In this document: positions 2,288 to 14,200 of the stretch, piece after piece
How positions within the stretch are numbered: position 1 is the first letter of the stretch
Layout: each line of letters begins with the position of its first letter
IMG/VR virus record: IMGVR_UViG_3300021560_000021
Coordinates: 1-54,837 of that record
DNA length: 54,837 bases
Reading direction: 5' to 3' (one strand)
Origin: a virus
Lineage: Duplodnaviria; Caudoviricetes
Position numbers and translations under genes: made by a program
The notes under the pieces: model-generated
Told to the model about the DNA's origin: nothing
What the model saw: the letters and a program-made list of their open reading frames with translations, nothing else
The model's database searches: none

Positions 2288-3379
2288 ATGAGCATTCTTA
2301 CCCAAGCGTCGCACGAGTGGATGAAGCGGCCGAATGATCAGCGGTATCTGAACCTGCCGGACATGAAGGCGCACTTCGATCTGGAGCGCAAGTACTCCGC
2401 CGAAAAGGTGGTGCCCACATCGAAGGTCACCATCCTGCCGGTCAAGGGCGACAACACGGGCTTGGTCGTACAGGGACCGAAGGGCTTTGACTTCGCGCCG
2501 ACTCACTGGTCCTTCGGCCAGCTTGCCACGCTCGGCAAGGCGCCGGCCGGATATCTTCGTACCCTGCCGTCACCGATGGCCGCTGACTGTCTGAACTTTG
2601 GCTTGAAGATCGCACGTGACATTGAAGACGTGGGCTTGCTGCTGCACAAGAATGGCGGCACCCCAACGCTGCGCGCGGCGACCGGGCCGAAGTACGGGCG
2701 CATCTGGAATAACGACCTGCTTGACGAAGTGATCAAGCGGTTCGGCGACGGCGTGACCGGGGCATGGAAGATACCCGGCGAGTTCGGCAAGAAGGTGGCG
2801 ATCACCAAGGCCAACACGACGCTGTACGCGTCCGACCGCGATTTCTTCATCTTCCTTGCCGATGAAGAGAATCGCATCATCCTGCCCAACCGGCGCGACG
2901 GTAAGTCCGGCTCGCTGGCGCGCGGCTGGTTCATGTGGAATTCCGAAGTCGGCTCAACGACCTTCGGTATTTCGATGTTCCTGTTTGACTACGCGTGCAA
3001 GAATCGCATCGTGTGGGGCGTGACCGAAAAGGTGGACTTCCGCCTGCGTCACACCGTGTCGGCGCCGGACAAGTGGCTGGCGGAAATCCAGCCGGCGCTG
3101 ATCGCCTACCAAAACTCGTCGGGTAAGGGCGTGTTGCAGGCAATCGAGGATGCCCGCAAGGACCGGCTTGAAGACAGGTTGCAGAAGTTCCTTGCTGACC
3201 GGTTTTCCAAGGAACTGGTCAAGAGCATGACCGACGTGCACATGATCGAAGAGGGCCGCCCGATCGAAACGCGGTGGGATGCCGTGGTCGCTGCGACTGC
3301 GGTTGCACGCTCTATCGAGCATCAGGACGTGCGTGTGAAGTTGGAGCGCGAGGCCGGATCGCTGTTGAAGGCTTCGTAA
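2288..3379 (+). CDS. DUF932-family protein
   Basis: 363 aa; TLYASDRDFFIFL, RGWFMWNSEVGS, FDYACKNRIVWG and RLRHT motifs; GAAAGGA RBS. Confidence 0.85.
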   Translation: MSILTQASHEWMKRPNDQRYLNLPDMKAHFDLERKYSAEKVVPTSKVTILPVKGDNTGLVVQGPKGFDFAPTHWSFGQLATLGKAPAGYLRTLPSPMAADCLNFGLKIARDIEDVGLLLHKNGGTPTLRAATGPKYGRIWNNDLLDEVIKRFGDGVTGAWKIPGEFGKKVAITKANTTLYASDRDFFIFLADEENRIILPNRRDGKSGSLARGWFMWNSEVGSTTFGISMFLFDYACKNRIVWGVTEKVDFRLRHTVSAPDKWLAEIQPALIAYQNSSGKGVLQAIEDARKDRLEDRLQKFLADRFSKELVKSMTDVHMIEEGRPIETRWDAVVAATAVARSIEHQDVRVKLEREAGSLLKAS

Positions 3380-3380
3380 T

Positions 3381-3416
3381 CCTAACTGACTTAGGGGAGC
3401 GGATAACACCGCTCCC
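3381..3416 (+). other. Tandem 3'-UTR hairpins upstream of the ribozyme
   Basis: CCTAA/TTAGG (3381-3395) and GGGAGCGG/CCGCTCCC (3395-3416); no U-tract. Confidence 0.65.
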
Positions 3417-3475
3417 GCCGTAATGCAGCCAATGCCGGTCACAAGCCCGGATGCAAAATGCAGAGTGAGGCGGGA
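3413..3475 (+). ncRNA. Twister self-cleaving ribozyme, type P1; predicted cleavage U3421/A3422
   Basis: P1 UCCCGCC/GGCGGGA; L1 GUAA; P2 UGCA/UGCA; GC pseudoknot; P4 CCGG/CCGG; L4 UCACAAGC; conserved GA; pseudoknot UCAC/GUGA. The core closely follows the rice Osa-1-4 twister as recalled (GCCAAUGCCGGUCCCAAGCCCGGAU), with a compensatory change in the pseudoknot. Confidence 0.93.
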
Positions 3476-3565
3476 AGCCGTACGAGTGGAACCACACTCA
3501 ATCCGTGCTTGGGCACATAAGCGCACGGGCCATTTGGAAACAGGGCTTGTGGAAGGCTTCCCGCC
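3469..3565 (+). ncRNA. Putative multibranch structured RNA overlapping the twister P1 3' strand
   Basis: 11-bp closing stem GGCGGGAAGCC/GGCTTCCCGCC encloses hairpins at 3484-3499 and 3503-3528 and a weak GAAA-loop hairpin at 3529-3546; intergenic. Confidence 0.6.
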
Positions 3566-3591
3566 GTACCCTAAAGCACCGGAGACAATCA

Positions 3592-3795
3592 ATGATCATT
3601 GTTGTCGGCATCGTCGTGTTCGCGCTGATCGGCGCGGCATGCTCGGCCAGACGCGGCGCCGTTGCAGCGGAAGACTTACGCTATATCGCGCTGCATGGCC
3701 GTGACGCATTCCTGACTAAACAACGCAACGCGCGCAACCTAAGACTGATCGGCTGGCTGCTCTTTGCTGGCTTGCTGTGGCGCGCATTCATGTAG
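3592..3795 (+). CDS. Small membrane protein (two hydrophobic segments)
   Basis: MIIVVGIVVFALIGAACS and LIGWLLFAGLLW; GGAG RBS at 3581. Confidence 0.75.
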   Translation: MIIVVGIVVFALIGAACSARRGAVAAEDLRYIALHGRDAFLTKQRNARNLRLIGWLLFAGLLWRAFM

Positions 3796-3805
3796 GAGAC
3801 TAAAA

Positions 3806-4201
3806 ATGAAACACGCGCTGATCGCGACGATGACGTTGGCGCTTGCAGCATGTCAGCAACCACTAATCGTGCCCGAGTACACCGGCTATCAGGGCGGCGA
3901 CACGTGCCCGTATGCACAGTCAATGACGCCAGCCGATTACAACCAACAACTTTGCCAGCGATGGGAGAGTGATCGCGCCGCATACCAAGCGTCGCACGCC
4001 AATAATTCAGCCGCCTACATGGCGCGCATTCACGCCTATGAGATAGCGCATCCGGGGCAAGAAGCCGCCCCTGATCCAAAGCTGACCGCTGCACAGCGGG
4101 ACTACATCATCCGCCGCAACCTCGTTGAAATGTGCATGCGTCGCGGGCTTGCGGCGCCGGCACCGGATTGCAGCGAGTTCTGGTGGGCACCGTTACACTG
4201 A
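3806..4201 (+). CDS. Predicted lipoprotein
   Basis: MKHALIATMTLALAAC signal peptide with LAAC lipobox; AGGAG RBS. Confidence 0.8.
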   Translation: MKHALIATMTLALAACQQPLIVPEYTGYQGGDTCPYAQSMTPADYNQQLCQRWESDRAAYQASHANNSAAYMARIHAYEIAHPGQEAAPDPKLTAAQRDYIIRRNLVEMCMRRGLAAPAPDCSEFWWAPLH

Positions 4202-5781: not shown

Positions 5782-6795
5782 ATGATGTCAGGACACCGCA
5801 CCATCCGAAATAACAAGATCGTCTTCGGCCACAACGTGTCTATGGCCGATATCCGACCGTGGAATATGACGGTGGCCAGCTTTCGCGATGCCGCGTTGGA
5901 GGAACGGGTATCGGCGTTGTACGTAACCGAGTGGAGCAACCAATTCATGCCCGATGCGGATACCGTACACAGTATCTCGCGGGCAGCCCATCGCGCCGTA
6001 AAGAGCGGCCAGTTGATTGACTTGGGCAACCTGCCCAACAACGTGATCAAAGAGGCTGGGCTGCGCGGCGGACCCTTGTACACACAAGGCGCCATCGGCC
6101 TGCCGTTCTCTGATCCGTGGGTCCTGTTTCACACATGGGAAGGCGGGCCGACTGCCTACGTTGTGCAGTTGGTCAAAGGCCAGCCGAATGGTGGCTGCAT
6201 CGAGATCGCCGAATTGATTGGCGTGGAAATCAAAGGACTCCGGCTGCTGATCGTCGGCGACCATCTGCACTACACGCCAACGCCGCAAGAGCCGGCACGG
6301 TACAACATCATCCCCATGCCATCCTATCTGCGCTGCATTGACTATGAAATGCAGAATGGTCCGTTGGACGTGACCGACAATCCAGAGCCGTTGATGGCTG
6401 GCGTCGGTCCCAACCTGTTGGACCCGCTCATGGCGGCACTGCTGATCATGAATACGGACGGCGTACCGAGTACGACAATCCGCGCAACCGACAAGCTGCA
6501 AAAGGCCAGGGCGAAGAATGGCAAGCCGATGATCCCGCCGTACCGCCAAGTCACCAGCGCAGGCTATGTGACCGCACTCGTGACGCGGCGCACTGAACAG
6601 CAGAACGGCAAACGTGGTACGCACGCGTCACCGGTCATGCATATCCGCCGTGGTCACAACCGGCATTACAAACGCTCCGGTGAGACGCGGTGGATCAAGG
6701 ACATGCTTATCAACGCCAACGAAGCGGCGCGCAATGACTTCATCGCCACGCGCACGCATTACAAAACAGGAGCGACGAATGAAACGCAAAATTAG
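5782..6795 (+). CDS. Phage hypothetical protein with C-terminal HxRRGH motif
   Basis: HASPVMHIRRGHNRHY...RWI; AAAGGA RBS. Confidence 0.75.
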   Translation: MMSGHRTIRNNKIVFGHNVSMADIRPWNMTVASFRDAALEERVSALYVTEWSNQFMPDADTVHSISRAAHRAVKSGQLIDLGNLPNNVIKEAGLRGGPLYTQGAIGLPFSDPWVLFHTWEGGPTAYVVQLVKGQPNGGCIEIAELIGVEIKGLRLLIVGDHLHYTPTPQEPARYNIIPMPSYLRCIDYEMQNGPLDVTDNPEPLMAGVGPNLLDPLMAALLIMNTDGVPSTTIRATDKLQKARAKNGKPMIPPYRQVTSAGYVTALVTRRTEQQNGKRGTHASPVMHIRRGHNRHYKRSGETRWIKDMLINANEAARNDFIATRTHYKTGATNETQN

Positions 6796-7954
6796 CAAGC
6801 GGAAGCAGGAAACACTCGAAACACGCACACGCGCACCGTTGCTGGTTGATCGGCTGCTGCATCAGGACCGCCGGGACAGCGAGCGATACGTACACCCGAA
6901 GGCACATGAACAAATGATGCGCTCTTTGCGGAGTTCGCATCGCTTCGTGTTTGACGATGAAGCCGCTGAGCGACTGGCCAAGGTGGTGATCGACATTCCG
7001 CAGCTTTTGGTACGCGAGCGGCAGTTTGCCCGAGCACCGTTTGACACAATCTGGATTGAGATTGCGTCACATCGGTACTGGGAAACCCTGCGCGAGCAAG
7101 CACCGGAAGCATACGACATGCAGGGCGAGTGGGGCGACCGCGAGAATGCTGATCACACGGTCGGCTACCTGATTGACCACAACCGCGTCAACACGATCGT
7201 CGGCGGCACCGTGGCGGACCCGCTGGGCAAAATCTATATCTCGCCGCTGCAATACCAAATTCATACCGAGTGGCCGCTACAGGACCAGATCAAATTTGCC
7301 GAAACCGCGCAAATGAGTCGGCTCGGTATAACCGCCTTCATGTGGGGAAGCTCGTTCGGCTTCCTTGGCAAGGATGATGTACACGACCTGCGCAATGAAA
7401 CCGTGCTGGAATTCCTGCCGCCTAATCCTGCGTACCCGGAGCAAGTCGGGTACCTCCGGCGGCCGGACGTGATTCAGTTGTCGATGCGCGGCGCGGTCGG
7501 CGACGTGCGCACCATCCACGCCTTGCTGTTGATGCTCAACCGACCGTCGATCACGCAATACCGACCGGTCAACACGTCGCGCGGCTGGTATCGGTCAAAG
7601 CCAATTCCGTACCTGTCGCACTCGGTTGTGCACGTTGATCTGGATGCCGTGAAAACCCTGCGCCACATTGGCACACCGGCTGAAAGCGGTATCACGCATC
7701 GTCGTCACGAAGTACGCGGGCACTTCTGCCACGATAAGACGGCACGCGACTACATGCGCATTGCCGGCTGCATCCATGAGTGGCGGGCGTGCGATGACGA
7801 ATGGGCGGTGATCGAAGGCAAGCCGAAGGACGAGCCTTCACGCTGGCACTGCGCGGCGTGCGGCGGCAAGCGGTGGTGGCGGGAAGCCCATGAGCGCGGC
7901 GACGCGTCCAAGGGCTACGTGATCAGGGATGGCTATGAGGTAACCGTGCTATGA
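6779..7954 (+). CDS. Phage hypothetical protein with HxVRGH motif and inserted Zn ribbon
   Basis: RRHEVRGHFCH...CIHEW...CAACGG...WWREAHERG; AGGAG RBS before ATG 6779. Confidence 0.75.
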   Translation: MKRKISKRKQETLETRTRAPLLVDRLLHQDRRDSERYVHPKAHEQMMRSLRSSHRFVFDDEAAERLAKVVIDIPQLLVRERQFARAPFDTIWIEIASHRYWETLREQAPEAYDMQGEWGDRENADHTVGYLIDHNRVNTIVGGTVADPLGKIYISPLQYQIHTEWPLQDQIKFAETAQMSRLGITAFMWGSSFGFLGKDDVHDLRNETVLEFLPPNPAYPEQVGYLRRPDVIQLSMRGAVGDVRTIHALLLMLNRPSITQYRPVNTSRGWYRSKPIPYLSHSVVHVDLDAVKTLRHIGTPAESGITHRRHEVRGHFCHDKTARDYMRIAGCIHEWRACDDEWAVIEGKPKDEPSRWHCAACGGKRWWREAHERGDASKGYVIRDGYEVTVL

Positions 7955-11227: not shown

Positions 11228-14200
11228 GGATAGACTGTACGACTGCCGTTGCTCGGGCTGACGCTGCGCGAGCCATTTGTGGGAGAGACGATTCGCCCGC
11301 CCCCGGACGGGCTGACCACACGCCCCGGCCCGCCGGGCGCAGTCACCCGATCCGGCGGGATGCCCGGCGGCCCGAAGTGCAGGAAATCCACGGCGGCCTG
11401 TACACCGCCGCTGCCATAGATTATCTGATTCCAATCAATCAGCGCGGTATGAGTGGCGCCGCCTATGACCGATCCGGCCCCATCTAGCTCGGCCGCGCCG
11501 TACGTCGCGCGGATGGCGTTGCAGATGACGGCGCCGGTACCGGCGATCGTCGCTGAGCCGTCCTGTACGTGCGGCGTGAAGGCGTCCGCCAGCACCCCAC
11601 CGATGCCGCCGATCGTGCCCCGTGCGGAGGCTAGGAGCGTCGCTGAGCCGGTGACGACGCCGGCCCCATCCACCCTACCGGCCGCCGCCAGACGGGCTTG
11701 TACAGCCGCCTGTACGCCGCCTGTGGCGTTGATTTGTACACTGACCGGGAGCCGCCCCGAGGCGGTGGCTTGTACTGCCCCCGTGCCGGCCACCAGAGCC
11801 GTACCAGCGGCCCGCAACGCCGCCCGCCCGGTTACCCCACCGGCCCCGTCGATCTGCCCTGTAGCCGCCGCCAGGACGGTTGTACTGATATCCGCCGCCA
11901 GGGTTGAATCGCCCGGCGCCCCGACCGGCGGCAGGATCGGCGCATAGGACGCGAAGGCTTGCTTCTGCCAGAGCGTCGCACCGTACCGGACGGTGATATC
12001 GACATGCGTGCCGATCGGCACGGTGAACATGAGGCGCGGGAAGACGTACACGCACCCCACATTCTGCATCGTGCGGGTACAGATATTCCGCTGCGAAGTC
12101 AGCGGTGCACTCGTTGGGAACGGCAGCGGGAAGTTGCCAACGGCAACCTGCGTCGGCGTGGCGTTGCCTTCGTAAACGGTGACCTGTGCCGCCGTGAGGC
12201 CGGCGGTTGAGCCGCCGATCAGCCGCCAGTATTCGCTGTACGTCCACGTGTCGCCTTGTACGGCTGGCGTATGCGTCCACGCCTCATTCGTGGTAGTGCC
12301 CGGATCAAAATAGAACGAATTGCTGGTCGTGGTGCCGAACCACCGCACGTCAATGGTCGGCATACCACTTTCGGAACCGACCGCTATGACCTGTGGCTGT
12401 AGGCCACCACCGATGAATGTGTACAGCGATGGCAGGACACCGGCATACTGTACCGAGACATTATCAACCGTGACCGCGCCGGCTGTGGTGCGGTTGATTC
12501 TGATCCATGTCGTTGTCGCGGTCGCGGTGAACCTGACACCGCAAGCCAAACCGGGACCAAGGTTTACGTTGCCTAAGCCAGACGCGCCCTGCGTATTGCC
12601 GATTGCGATATTCGCAGCTACGCCGCCGCCAACGTCCAATGACAAAATGTACGTGCGGCCGATAACCGTCGCGACCGACGTATCAATGCGTGCGTTGTTG
12701 GTACCGTCCGGGCTGATCGTAACTAGGTTGGTTGCCCAAGTCACCGTACTGGTGCCGCCGACAACGGACCAGTACCAGCCGTTTTGCAATACGTTCTGTG
12801 CGGCGTTTAACGGGTTGAGCGCGAAGCTGCCGTTGGTGATCAGCTCTATGCCATCGGCCGGTACAGCACCTTCCCAACGCGGGTTGCGGCTGGCGTTGAC
12901 CGTCGCCGGTTCAGTGATCAAACCAAGCGGGTTGAGCGTGACCGGATCGTAGCCGTAGCGCGGGACGTTGATGCCCGCCTGTTGCAGCGTGCCCGTGTTG
13001 TCGAAACACCAAGCCGGACTGTTGCGCGCGAATGTACCGACACCGGCCACGCCGTCGATTTCGGCACTGACCGTACCGGCGGTGACGCTGCGCGCATCAG
13101 CCTGTACACCGCCGACGCCATTGATGGTCGCCGACGCCGGCAGGACGGCATGTACACTGTCGGCCAGGACCGTGCCGGAGCCGGCCAGGACCGCGCCTGC
13201 GACCGCCCGGAGGACCGCCCCGCCGGAGACTGATCCTGCCCCGCTGATCAGCCCGGACGCGGCCAGCCGGAGGGTTGCCGAGGCACTGACCTGACCGACG
13301 CCGGCAAGGGTTGCAGACGCGCCCGATGTGCGGCCTGTGTCAGCACTGATCCCGCCGACGCCGGCAATGGTTGCACCGGCTGTTGCCCACTGTACGGCCG
13401 AGCTACTGACCGCGCCTGCGCCGGCCATGGTCGCACTGGCCGCCGCCAGAATGACAGCCGAGCCGCTGACCGAGCCGATACCGTCGATTTCGGCCGACGA
13501 TGTACCGGCAGTGACCGTACGCCCATCGGCCGCCACACCGCCGATACCGGCAATCGTCGCCGACGCCGGTTGTACAACGTGCACCGCGTTGGCTTGTACG
13601 CCGCCTGCACCGTTGATGCTCGCCGACGCCGTTGCCCGGAGGACAGCGGAGCCGGAGACGGAGCCGGAGCCGTTGATCGCTGTTGCAGCGGTGACGCTGT
13701 GCACGCCGGAGCTTTGTACCGCGCCGACGCCGTTGATGGTGGAGCTTGCAACTGCCCGGAGGACAGCGGAGCCGGAGACGCTGCCGAAGCCGTTGATCAG
13801 CGCATTAGCCGACGCCTGGACAGCCGCCGTTGCAGCGACCGAGCCGATGCCGTCGATTTCCGCTGACGCGGTGATGCCTATGGTCGCGCGATCGCCGCTG
13901 GCCTGGACACCGCCTACACCGTCGATTTCGATCGCAGCGGTGACAAGGTGGACGCTATCGGCCTGGACAGCGCCGACGCCGTTGATCGTCGCCGCTGCAA
14001 TTTCGAGGATGGCAGCAGTACCAGCTACCGCACCGACACCACCGATCGTCGCCGCAGCGAGTGGAGTGTGTACCGCGGTGAAGTTTGTACCACCGACGCC
14101 GGCAATGGTTGCCGCTGCGACTGTGCTGTGCGTTGCGGTGAAGCTGGTAGCGCCGGCACCGTTGATCGTCGCCGCTGCAAGCGGCGTATGCGTTGCGTTG

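What the first reader, a model, noticed from the sequence alone, without database searches (positions are those of the whole stretch)
3413..3568. Ribozyme cleavage site duplicated 146 nt downstream: conformational switch or circular-RNA unit
Seen: TCCCGCCGTA (P1 5' strand plus the scissile U|A) occurs at 3413-3422 and again at 3559-3568. The second copy forms a longer 11-bp helix with the P1 3' strand (3469-3479/3555-3565), closing a three-hairpin domain. Inference A: 3422-3567 is shaped like a 146-nt monomer whose ends, if joined, rebuild an intact twister inside a compact circle, as in viroid-like RNAs or retrozymes. Inference B: the downstream strand displaces P1 as a co-transcriptional off-switch or a post-cleavage lock. 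Caveat: the second site lacks a P2 strand, so how it would be cut is unexplained, and only 3 nt (GTA) of the repeat go beyond what pairing alone requires.
Basis: partly seen in the sequence, partly recalled or inferred. Interest (0 to 1): 0.9.

Follow-up and report, generated by a model that had tools for sequence, protein, structure and literature searches.

The report
Phage twister ribozyme with built-in competitor strand
A self-cutting twister RNA between two phage genes is followed by an unusual extra RNA domain whose last strand copies the cut site and can pair with the ribozyme in its place, which more likely refolds the RNA after cutting than makes an RNA circle.

Summary
TCCCGCCGTA lies at 3413-3422 and 3559-3568, and 3469-3479 pairs perfectly (11 bp) with 3555-3565, closing three hairpins. 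The ribozyme is a P3-less type-P1 twister (Rfam 46.5 bits, E 2.4e-9, below the 67.2 cut-off, as were all 8 peer phage twisters tested). It lies in a phage intergenic region with no promoter or terminator match. Of 68 distinct phage type-P1 twisters, only this one has a downstream strand complementary to its P1 3' strand (11 bp; the others 4-8). I found no homolog of the extra domain, so conservation and covariation cannot be tested. The repeat is best read as the footprint of alternative pairing: 3555-3582 pairs with the ribozyme's 3' side, 3447-3479 (-36.2 kcal/mol). GCCGUAC occurs at 3477 and 3563, and both copies complement GUGAGGC (3465-3471). The most likely role is a strand-exchange lock or off-switch acting after co-transcriptional cleavage (about 0.5). 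The 146-nt unit, folded as a circle, does give an intact twister. However, there is no second ribozyme, no similarity after the repeat, and no RNA data, so the circle reading gets about 0.05. It is a new variant of a known kind and a single example.

The parts
2288..3379 (+). Upstream gene (363 aa, phage protein of unknown function); stop codon at 3377-3379
   Evidence: ORF list. PHROG phrog_1362 at E 8.5e-43. No Pfam family.
3395..3416 (+). GC-rich 8-bp hairpin (GGGAGCGG/CCGCUCCC) directly abutting P1. Its last 4 nt (UCCC) can instead extend P1.
   Evidence: (I6). A comparable hairpin ends within 8 nt of the cut site in 61 of 68 phage type-P1 twisters.
3413..3475 (+). Type-P1 twister ribozyme without P3. 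P1 is 3417-3419/3469-3471, extendable to 3413-3419/3469-3475. P2 is 3424-3427/3459-3462. P4 is 3435-3437/3448-3450. T1 is CAC 3440-3442 with GUG 3465-3467.
   Evidence: Rfam RF03160 at 3417-3471, 46.5 bits, E 2.4e-9. The twister fold is the minimum-free-energy structure for transcripts ending at 3472-3480. The T1 middle pair is A-U.
3421..3422 (+). Predicted scissile bond U3421|A3422
   Evidence: Position in the Rfam alignment and the family's known U|A cleavage site (PMC6154101, passages read). Cleavage itself is not shown.
3465..3483 (+). Local alternative hairpin, GUG-A-GGC / GCC-G-UAC. It sequesters the T1 3' strand and the P1 3' strand. It contains the first GCCGUAC copy (3477-3483).
   Evidence: -8.1 kcal/mol; it also appears in the folds.
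3484..3550 (+). Three hairpins of the extra domain: 3484-3488/3495-3499, 3505-3511/3518-3524, and 3525-3531/3544-3550 with 3534-3536/3541-3543
   Evidence: No similar sequence was found in any held locus, in INPHARED or in IMG/VR by pattern.
3543..3551 (+). GGGCUUGUG, a perfect 9-nt complement of the conserved twister loop CACAAGCCC (3440-3448). Its order crosses the 11-bp helix, so the two pairings are alternatives.
   Evidence: I1; -15.3 kcal/mol; it forms in the fold ending at 3553.
3555..3582 (+). Competitor strand. 3555-3565 pairs with 3469-3479 (11 bp). With interruptions the pairing goes on to 3567-3569/3465-3467, 3571-3572/3462-3463, 3576-3578/3452-3454 and 3579-3582/3447-3450.
   Evidence: duplex -36.2 kcal/mol. 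The duplex z-score is -2.89, second of 68 twisters.
3559..3568 (+). Second copy of the decamer TCCCGCCGTA (the finding)
3363..3375 (+). TGTTGAAGGCTTC at the end of the upstream gene. It matches 3548-3560 (TGTGGAAGGCTTC) at 12 of 13 positions and is collinear with the decamer repeat across a 39-nt gap.
   Evidence: D1. Gapped local alignment scores 27.2; 0 of 500 shuffles and 1 of 109 other window segments score as high. On its own the block is weak: 69 of 1000 shuffles score as high.
3581..3585 (+). Shine-Dalgarno-like GGAGA. Its first two G's pair with 3447-3448 in the alternative fold.
   Evidence: Sequence and fold
3592..3795 (+). Downstream small gene (67 aa, hydrophobic N-terminus). The ATG lies 7 nt after the Shine-Dalgarno sequence.
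   Evidence: No Pfam or PHROG family. A small ORF also follows the homologous gene in relative L147.

Best explanation
This is a phage intergenic type-P1 twister ribozyme. It should cut the polycistronic transcript at U3421|A3422, 42 nt after the upstream stop codon. Unlike its phage peers, it carries a roughly 86-nt three-hairpin insertion between the ribozyme and the next gene's ribosome-binding site. The last strand of that insertion (3555-3569, weakly on to 3582) is complementary to the ribozyme's 3' side. That side comprises the P1 3' strand, the T1 3' strand GUG and, more weakly, the P2 and P4 3' strands. The decamer 'repeat' is a by-product of this: any strand that pairs with GUGAGGCGGGA must resemble the substrate strand. 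The proposed sequence of events is inferred, not shown. First, the upstream hairpin and the twister fold while the RNA is being made, and cleavage occurs. About 80 nt later the competitor strand emerges and docks on the free AGCC (3476-3479). It then displaces the substrate strand by branch migration and releases the upstream mRNA, which ends in a hairpin plus GCCGU with a 2',3'-cyclic phosphate. This leaves the downstream mRNA with a tightly closed 5' leader. For molecules not yet cut, the same exchange, extended into T1, P2 and P4, would act as an off-switch.
For: All twister features that could be tested are present. The twister fold is the predicted structure when transcription has reached 3472-3480: P1, P2 and P4 pair probabilities are 0.96-0.97 at 3472. 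Once 3565 is transcribed, the 11-bp helix has probability 0.99-1.0. Duplex energies are -13.5 kcal/mol for the 7-bp P1 and -23.7 for the 11-bp helix, with 4 unpaired toehold nucleotides. At full length the alternative fold scores -86.1 and the best twister-compatible fold -75.5, pseudoknots not counted. In the 3' cleavage product the twister core plus the 11-bp helix is within 3.9 kcal/mol of the minimum (-61.4 against -65.3). The window is unique among 68 phage type-P1 twisters and ranks second of 68 by duplex z-score. The two downstream GCCGUAC copies (3477, 3563) both complement GUGAGGC 3465-3471 (-6.0 kcal/mol each). They share a C at the position after the A, and that C pairs with G3465. 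The true substrate has A at that position, so the copies look selected for pairing rather than for substrate mimicry. There is no promoter or terminator match in 3000-4000 on the + strand, which fits read-through transcription.
Against: There is only one example. I found no homolog of the domain, so there is no conservation or covariation evidence. All 11 syntenic relatives of the upstream gene that could be examined lack any twister there. The energies ignore pseudoknots, tertiary contacts and kinetics. At intermediate lengths the nested model already disfavours the twister, so it may simply undervalue it. Stem P1 is reported as dispensable for cleavage (PMC6154101, passage), so the 11-bp helix alone need not affect catalysis. 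G3566 matches G3420 without any pairing reason. The collinear repeat 3363-3375/3548-3560 and the 7-nt direct repeats flanking the domain hint at an insertion or duplication origin, which needs no function.
Confidence: 0.5

Rival explanations
1. The domain is a relic of an insertion or duplication with no function of its own. An ordinary phage twister cassette acquired an 86-nt insertion, and the repeats are scars of that event. The complementarity to the ribozyme is incidental or tolerated.
For: GCCGTAC occurs at 3477-3483 and 3563-3569 and flanks 86 nt. Removing one copy plus the intervening sequence would put the start codon 38 nt after GAGUG. The median distance in phage peers is 27 nt, and it is 45 nt or less in 48 of 65 (one of those 48 is the window's own mis-called internal GTG). 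The repeat 3363-3375/3548-3560 is collinear with the decamer repeat (0 of 500 shuffles, 1 of 109 natural segments score as high). A second contig in the same sample matches 3414-3450 with 2 differences and runs straight into an SD-like AGGAGAGA, with no such domain. None of the other 67 twisters has the feature.
Against: An 11-bp perfect GC-rich helix, its extension, and a second 9-bp anti-core match are a lot of complementarity for a scar. The three hairpins and the closing helix fold far better than shuffles (z -3.94; circle z -3.27). No other copy of the inserted sequence exists in the window or in any held locus, so it is not an evident mobile element. A 7-nt flanking repeat is itself close to chance in this genome (16 copies of GCCGTAC on the + strand).
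Confidence: 0.25
2. The three-hairpin domain is an independent cis-acting leader RNA of the downstream gene, for example a stabiliser or a binding site for a protein or ligand. Its closing stem merely recruits the P1 3' strand once the ribozyme has done its work, and there is no feedback on the ribozyme.
For: It is a compact, well-folding four-way junction just upstream of the SD. The 3' product can keep the twister core and the closing helix together. The twister 5'-OH end is described as buried in the fold of the 3' fragment (PMC8782182, passage read).
Against: There is no Rfam family at E up to 10 in 3300-3700 other than the twister, no tRNA-like call, and no homolog anywhere searched. It does not explain the additional anti-core matches at 3501-3525 and 3543-3551.
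Confidence: 0.15
3. One reading: an excised or circular 146-nt RNA. After the first cut, strand exchange places the second UCCCGCCGU|A in the same catalytic core. A second cut at U3567|A3568 then releases 3422-3567 with 5'-OH and 2',3'-cyclic phosphate ends. These ends are joined by the reverse reaction or by a host RtcB-type ligase.
For: The identity runs exactly through the nucleotide 3' of the scissile bond. The circle's minimum-free-energy fold is an intact twister with an 11-bp P1 capped by the domain (-56.2 kcal/mol, z -3.27). A cut at 3567|3568 would leave the downstream gene a 24-nt leader with its SD, much like ordinary spacing. Twister-bearing circular RNAs exist in metatranscriptomes, and one pistol-bearing 'circle' turned out to be a dsDNA-phage segment with a short terminal repeat (bioRxiv 10.1101/2022.07.19.500677, passages read).
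Against: There is one ribozyme only, on one strand. Nothing after the second copy resembles P2 or the rest of a twister (194 of 1000 shuffles score as high). The core would have to work with a broken backbone between the +1 A and P2, and I found no precedent for that (literature searches). Pairing explains the extra letters about as well. None of the other 67 phage twisters has the arrangement. At 146 nt it would be shorter than the viroid-like circles I recall (roughly 220 nt and longer; recalled, not checked). The pistol case cited above is itself a warning that short repeats can imitate circles.
Confidence: 0.05

Closest known systems
Type-P1 twister ribozymes of phages and bacteria (Rfam RF03160), here the P3-less form
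   Same: It has the same core sequence, P1/P2/P4 helices and T1 covariation. It has the same setting as its peers: a GC hairpin just 5' of a short P1 (61 of 68), an intergenic position, and a gene start shortly after. Suggested roles in processing polycistronic or phage mRNAs are in print but unproven (PMC6765202, section 13, read).
   Different: It carries an 86-100-nt structured extension before the SD, and a downstream strand complementary to the ribozyme's 3' side. This was seen in 1 of 68. Start-codon spacing is 124 nt against a median of 27.
Circularly permuted twisters in which P1 is closed by a loop (seen here in many phage loci, e.g. L005, L018)
   Same: In the 3' cleavage product the order is P2 3' strand, GAGUG, P1 3' strand, cap, P1 5' strand, GUA. 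That is the first half of such a permuted twister, with the three-hairpin domain as the cap.
   Different: The permuted forms continue after UAA with P2, T2 and P4. Here the sequence after GUA is unrelated, so no second complete ribozyme exists.
Ribozymes controlled by flanking alternative pairings: HDV ribozyme attenuators (Alt/P(-1) pairings) and viroid hammerheads masked by the rod-like fold
   Same: A flanking strand competes for a ribozyme strand, so activity depends on the order of folding during transcription.
   Different: Those cases are conserved within their families and were tested at the bench. Here there is one sequence and no test. I found no natural twister with such a competitor in the held library.
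Viroid-like circular RNAs and retrozymes with twister or hammerhead ribozymes, and the engineered twister-flanked 'Tornado' circular-RNA design (the latter recalled)
   Same: A unit bounded by two copies of a cleavage site, whose joined ends would rebuild the ribozyme.
   Different: Those have a complete ribozyme for each cut (one per unit or per flank), often on both strands, and units that, as I recall, are roughly 170-220 nt or longer. Here the repeat is 10 nt, there is one ribozyme, one strand, a DNA phage origin, and no RNA evidence.

Membership tests
Twister ribozyme, type P1 (RF03160) | Covariance-model score at or above the curated cut-off (67.2 bits) | tested here: not met
   46.5 bits, E 2.4e-9. 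The shortfall comes from the deleted optional P3 stem. All 8 twister matches in five other phage loci also fall below the cut-off, at 47.3-64.6 bits.
Twister ribozyme, type P1 (RF03160) | Conserved core: U|AA, P2 followed by GCC, loop GGUCNCAAGCC within P4, GAGNG before the P1 3' strand | tested here: met
   Alignment to the model, and the sequence.
Twister ribozyme, type P1 (RF03160) | Helices P1, P2 and P4, with the ends open at P1 | tested here: met
   The twister fold is the minimum-free-energy structure of 3413-3480.
Twister ribozyme, type P1 (RF03160) | Pseudoknot T1 between the P4 loop and GAGNG | tested here: met
   CAC 3440-3442 can pair with GUG 3465-3467. Across 68 phage twisters the variable middle position forms a Watson-Crick pair in 67 (A-U 28, C-G 28, G-C 10, U-A 1).
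Twister ribozyme, type P1 (RF03160) | Self-cleavage at the U|A bond | not testable with these tools
   No RNA run holds the sequence. A bench assay is needed.
Viroid-like circular RNA / retrozyme-type unit | A complete ribozyme serving each of the two cleavage sites | tested here: not met
   A single Rfam match on either strand of 3300-3700 at E up to 10, and one in the whole record. The sequence after the second site is unrelated to the twister.
Viroid-like circular RNA / retrozyme-type unit | Circular junction or unit-length RNA observed | not testable with these tools
   Only one DNA run holds the stretch, and no RNA holder is listed. The DNA contigs show no joint or deletion.
Viroid-like circular RNA / retrozyme-type unit | The unit folds compactly and rebuilds the ribozyme when closed | tested here: met
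   Circular fold of 3422-3567: -56.2 kcal/mol, z -3.27, with P2, P4, the 11-bp P1 and three hairpins. The same fold is available to the linear 3' product, so this does not discriminate.
Ribozyme with a regulatory alternative pairing | A flanking strand forms a helix mutually exclusive with a ribozyme helix and of greater stability | tested here: met
   -23.7 against -13.5 kcal/mol for the two partners of 3469-3475. Pair probabilities switch once 3565 is transcribed.
Ribozyme with a regulatory alternative pairing | The alternative pairing is conserved or covaries in relatives | not testable with these tools
   No homolog of the domain was found. 67 other phage twisters lack it.

The most novel reading that the evidence does not exclude
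One twister core processes two sites in turn. After cutting at 3421|3422, toehold-driven strand exchange loads the duplicated UCCCGCCGU|A into the same active site. A second cut then excises a 146-nt RNA (twister plus three-hairpin cap), whose ends lie side by side and can be sealed into a circle. The downstream gene would be left with a short, ordinary leader. That would be a DNA-phage-encoded ribozyme circle made with a single ribozyme.
Probability: 0.05. Interest if true: 0.9.

Novelty: new variant of a known kind. Interest (0 to 1): 0.45.

Why it matters
The biological role of bacterial and phage twisters is still described as elusive (PMC6765202, section 13). A natural twister that carries its own competitor strand would be a ready-made case for studying how folding order during transcription sets a time window for self-cleavage. 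It could also show how the two mRNA products are released and protected. The strand arrangement, a toehold plus a longer helix, is the kind of device RNA engineers build on purpose. If the rarer reading were true, it would show circular-RNA production by a single ribozyme in a DNA phage. As it stands this is one sequence with no relatives and no RNA data, so it is a bench-testable hypothesis rather than a discovery.

Tried and rejected
Homolog searches that found nothing useful:
- blastn ('distant') of 3380-3600 against INPHARED phages gave no match.
- Relatives of the upstream protein: 2 loci in IMG/VR, 10 in metagenomes and none in GTDB genomes. I examined 11 of these 12 loci. L148 was left out because its gene runs off the contig. 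L003 and L150 appear to be the same contig. None has a twister after the gene.
- The window-specific 17-mer gave 2 chance hits in coding DNA.
- A 'twister core followed 75-105 nt later by its complement' pattern gave 0 hits in IMG/VR and 22 hits in GTDB genomes. None of the 22 is a twister.
- The 5'-flank pattern found L135 plus one chance hit.
- blastn-short of the domain against all held loci gave only chance-level words.

Ideas tested and dropped:
- A decayed second twister after the repeat: 194 of 1000 shuffles score as high.
- The domain as a diverged copy of the twister: 1000 of 1000 shuffles score as high.
- A tRNA-like domain: ARAGORN found none.
- A promoter or terminator inside the region: none on the + strand.
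- A general rule that the upstream flank masks the downstream ribosome site until cleavage: mean z is -0.18 over 67 twisters, L135 +0.56, window -1.39.
- L135 as an ortholog: its upstream protein is unrelated.
- A splicing-like reading, joining across the two sites: the upstream ORF already ends at 3379, before the first site.

Other blanks:
- No RNA holder is listed for the stretch. One DNA run holds it and is possibly the source sample. Laying that run showed no joints or indels.
- Paper supplements are closed, so published lists of twister representatives could not be checked for similar cases.
- Complex prediction, the structure tools and the large protein searches were not used, because they do not bear on an RNA question.
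Full report
WHAT IS THERE. The window is an IMG/VR virus record (linear, 54,837 bases, CheckV completeness 63). Positions 3380-3591 are the spacer between a 363-aa phage gene of unknown function and a 67-aa gene. The first gene is 2288-3379 (phrog_1362, E 8.5e-43). The second is 3592-3795, preceded by GGAGA at 3581-3585. No sigma-70-like promoter and no + strand terminator is called in 3000-4000. The two genes are therefore probably co-transcribed.

A gathering-threshold Rfam scan of the whole window finds nothing. A permissive scan of 3300-3700 finds one family only. That is twister-P1 (RF03160) at 3417-3471 on the + strand, 46.5 bits, E 2.4e-9, full model length, with the optional P3 stem deleted (same result).

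The core letters all match the model: U|AA, P2 UGCA/UGCA, GCC, GCCGGUCACAAGCCCGG and GAGUG. P1 is 3417-3419/3469-3471 and can extend to 7 bp (3413-3419/3469-3475). The scissile bond falls at U3421|A3422.

The sub-threshold score is normal for this kind of phage twister. In five other phage loci, all 8 twister matches score 47.3-64.6 bits, below the 67.2 cut-off.

THE OBSERVATION. TCCCGCCGTA is at 3413-3422 and 3559-3568. GGCGGGAAGCC (3469-3479) and GGCTTCCCGCC (3555-3565) are exact reverse complements. In the minimum-free-energy fold that 11-bp helix closes three hairpins. The region folds better than all 200 shuffles (z -3.94).

IS IT MORE THAN CHANCE, AND IS IT A FAMILY TRAIT? I collected phage twisters from IMG/VR with two exact-word patterns. 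The second gave 38 stretches and was complete.

After removing duplicates, and keeping type-P1 forms with enough flank, 68 distinct twisters remained, including the window. Across them the variable base of the P4 loop and the variable base of GAGNG form a Watson-Crick pair in 67 of 68. This supports pseudoknot T1 and the authenticity of the set.

The common architecture is clear. A stable hairpin ends within 8 nt of the cut site in 61 of 68. A start codon with an SD-like word was found for 65 of 68, at a median of 27 nt after GAGNG. The distance is 45 nt or less in 48 of 65. One of those 48 is the window itself, where the script picked an internal GTG. The real distance in the window is 124 nt.

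The 5' side of the window's twister, a hairpin at 3395-3416 abutting P1, is therefore ordinary. The 3' side is not.

The longest perfect complement between the 16 nt around the P1 3' strand and the next 20-250 nt is 11 bp in the window and 4-8 bp in the other 67. The two 8-bp cases are AT-only words. No other twister repeats its cleavage-site decamer downstream. The best matches are 6-8 of 10 in all 31 other P3-less cases and in every non-window row.

The feature is thus real, statistically unusual, and not a property of the family.

NO RELATIVES TO TEST CONSERVATION. blastn against INPHARED found nothing. I examined eleven loci that encode relatives of the upstream protein (30-59% identity). 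None has a twister after the gene, and L002 has a terminator-like hairpin there instead. GTDB genomes gave no relative of the protein.

Pattern scans for the window's own P1 3' word gave only chance hits. So did scans for a twister followed by the complement of its core, and for the 5' flank; the flank scan also re-found L135. The domain has no similar sequence in about 1.3 Mb of held loci.

The nearest twister is in L135, an AT-rich 199-kb contig. It is 96% identical over 50 nt. It shares two short collinear blocks in the 5' flank, although the upstream proteins are unrelated. L135 also has a roughly 100-nt spacer with two hairpins, but these are unrelated in sequence and there is no complement of P1.

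The one public run that holds the window is DNA. Its contigs show no deletion or joint in 3100-3900. They also contain a second, low-depth contig that matches 3414-3450 with two differences. That contig runs straight from the twister into an SD-like word, with no extra domain.

ANATOMY OF THE COMPETITION. Beyond the 11 bp, 3567-3569 pairs with 3465-3467, which is GUG, the 3' strand of T1. In addition, 3571-3572 pairs with 3462-3463, 3576-3578 with 3452-3454, and 3579-3582 with 3447-3450. The whole duplex is -36.2 kcal/mol. Its z-score of -2.89 is second of 68. The last of these pairs overlap the first two G's of the SD.

A separate 9-nt word, GGGCUUGUG (3543-3551), is the perfect complement of the conserved loop CACAAGCCC. 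Its order crosses the 11-bp helix, so the two are alternatives, not one structure.

GCCGUAC occurs twice, at 3477-3483 and 3563-3569. Each copy complements GUGAGGC (3465-3471) with one A-G mismatch. The first copy makes a local hairpin of -8.1 kcal/mol.

These two copies share C after the A, and that C pairs with G3465. The real substrate has A there, the conserved second A of the twister. So of the three 'extra' letters G-U-A, U and A are accounted for by pairing with G3467 and U3466. Only G3566 is not. This weakens the one argument that the cut site itself, rather than a pairing partner, has been duplicated.

ENERGETICS AND FOLDING ORDER (ViennaRNA, no pseudoknot terms). With the transcript ending at 3472, the P1, P2 and P4 pairs have probability 0.96-0.97. 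At 3480 the minimum-free-energy fold of 3390-3480 is the upstream hairpin plus a 3-bp P1, P2 and P4. From 3565 onward the 11-bp helix has probability 0.99-1.0.

At full length the alternative fold is -86.1 kcal/mol. A fold that keeps the twister is -75.5; it has the upstream hairpin, a 3-bp P1 and an 8-bp version of the downstream helix. T1, T2 and tertiary contacts are not counted, so the true balance is open.

P1 uses 3469-3475, and 3476-3479 (AGCC) is free to act as a toehold for GGCU 3555-3558. The duplex energies are -13.5 kcal/mol (7 bp) and -23.7 (11 bp).

In the 3' cleavage product, the twister core with the 11-bp helix in place of P1 lies 3.9 kcal/mol above the minimum. In the 146-nt unit folded as a circle, it is the minimum itself (-56.2 kcal/mol, z -3.27).

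The model also predicts that parts of the domain disrupt the twister at intermediate lengths. That may be real, or it may reflect the missing pseudoknot terms.

INTERPRETATION. The best-supported reading is a strand-exchange device attached to an otherwise ordinary phage twister. The ribozyme folds and cuts while the RNA is being made. The competitor strand, transcribed about 80 nt later, takes over the P1 3' strand and releases the upstream mRNA. That mRNA ends in a hairpin and a short tail. The downstream mRNA keeps a closed, 5'-OH leader. The same exchange silences any uncut molecules, provided it spreads into T1, P2 and P4.

The last condition matters, because stem P1 is reported to be dispensable for cleavage (PMC6154101, passage read). 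The folds, energies and uniqueness are computed here. The order of events and any effect on expression are inferred. I put this reading at about 0.5.

The main rival (0.25) is that the domain is a scar. It is flanked by 7-nt direct repeats, and removing it would restore typical spacing (38 nt). A 13-nt word from the end of the upstream gene recurs just before the second decamer, collinear with it across a 39-nt gap (0 of 500 shuffles and 1 of 109 natural segments score as high). That word alone is weak, with 69 of 1000 shuffles scoring as high.

A third reading (0.15) treats the domain as an independent leader element.

The circular or excised-RNA reading (0.05) fits the geometry but lacks a second ribozyme. 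The sequence after the second site is unrelated to the twister. It would also need catalysis with a broken backbone next to the +1 adenine. I found no precedent for that in four literature searches.

A preprint on viroid-like circles reports twister-bearing circles. It also reports a pistol-bearing 'circle' that was really a dsDNA-phage segment with a short terminal repeat (10.1101/2022.07.19.500677, passages read). That is a caution against inferring circles from short repeats.

COMPARISON AND NOVELTY. By every feature I could test except the curated Rfam score, this is a member of the twister family. It also matches the usual phage setting. Phage association and a possible role in processing polycistronic mRNAs are already in print, with function called elusive (PMC6765202, section 13; PMC8782182, passage).

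What is new is the 3' competitor domain, so I rate it a new variant of a known kind. It works like ribozymes with attenuator pairings (HDV, viroid hammerheads; recalled, not read here). Membership in such a class cannot be claimed without conservation.

Interest is 0.45. It is an unusual and cleanly testable arrangement. It is also a single sequence, with no relatives, no RNA data, and a plausible non-functional origin.

Noticed in passing
IMG/VR loci L004-L146: Phage type-P1 twisters share a stereotyped setting. A GC-rich hairpin ends within 8 nt of the cut site in 61 of 68. A gene start lies a median of 27 nt after the ribozyme, and the P1 3' strand often overlaps the Shine-Dalgarno word (e.g. 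L055, L085). This suggests a general role in separating and perhaps differentially stabilising neighbouring cistrons.
   Followed up: partly
L038 12152-12820 (-); L123 about 12737-13394 (-); L079 500-830; L012 2734-3324; L084 833-1296: Some phages carry two or three twisters in tandem at roughly 300-570-nt spacing, each in front of a small gene. RNAs between two such ribozymes would have 5'-OH and cyclic-phosphate ends. These loci are better candidates for excised or circular RNAs than the window is.
   Followed up: no
L009, L014, L038, L074, L135 and window 3417-3471: All 8 phage twister matches in five loci, and the window's own, score below Rfam's gathering cut-off (46.5-64.6 against 67.2 bits). 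Standard annotation therefore misses them.
   Followed up: partly
L135 3952-4036 against window 3366-3471: An AT-rich 199-kb phage contig has a twister 96% identical over 50 nt. It also shares two short collinear flank blocks (GGCTTC, GTAATCC) just upstream, although the upstream proteins are unrelated. The twister may travel as a small cassette that includes the end of the preceding reading frame.
   Followed up: partly
Run X1, record 2, laid on window 3414-3450: The only run that holds the window also has a low-depth 176-nt contig with a near-identical twister 5' half (2 differences in 37 nt). Its flanks differ, and an SD-like word follows directly after the ribozyme. A related twister without the extra domain therefore coexists in the sample.
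   Followed up: no
window 6533-6544 (+) and 7878-7888 (+): A third exact copy of the decamer (12 nt with its next two letters) lies inside one coding region. A second copy of GGCGGGAAGCC lies inside another, 1.3 kb downstream. This is probably chance, given how common GCCGTA is here (35 copies). Trans pairing with the ribozyme strand was not examined.
   Followed up: partly
window 3505-3795 (+): The reading frame of the 67-aa gene is open back to 3505, through the end of the domain. The 13-nt word shared with the end of the upstream gene sits in that same frame. No SD precedes the GTG at 3505, so this is probably not coding.
   Followed up: no
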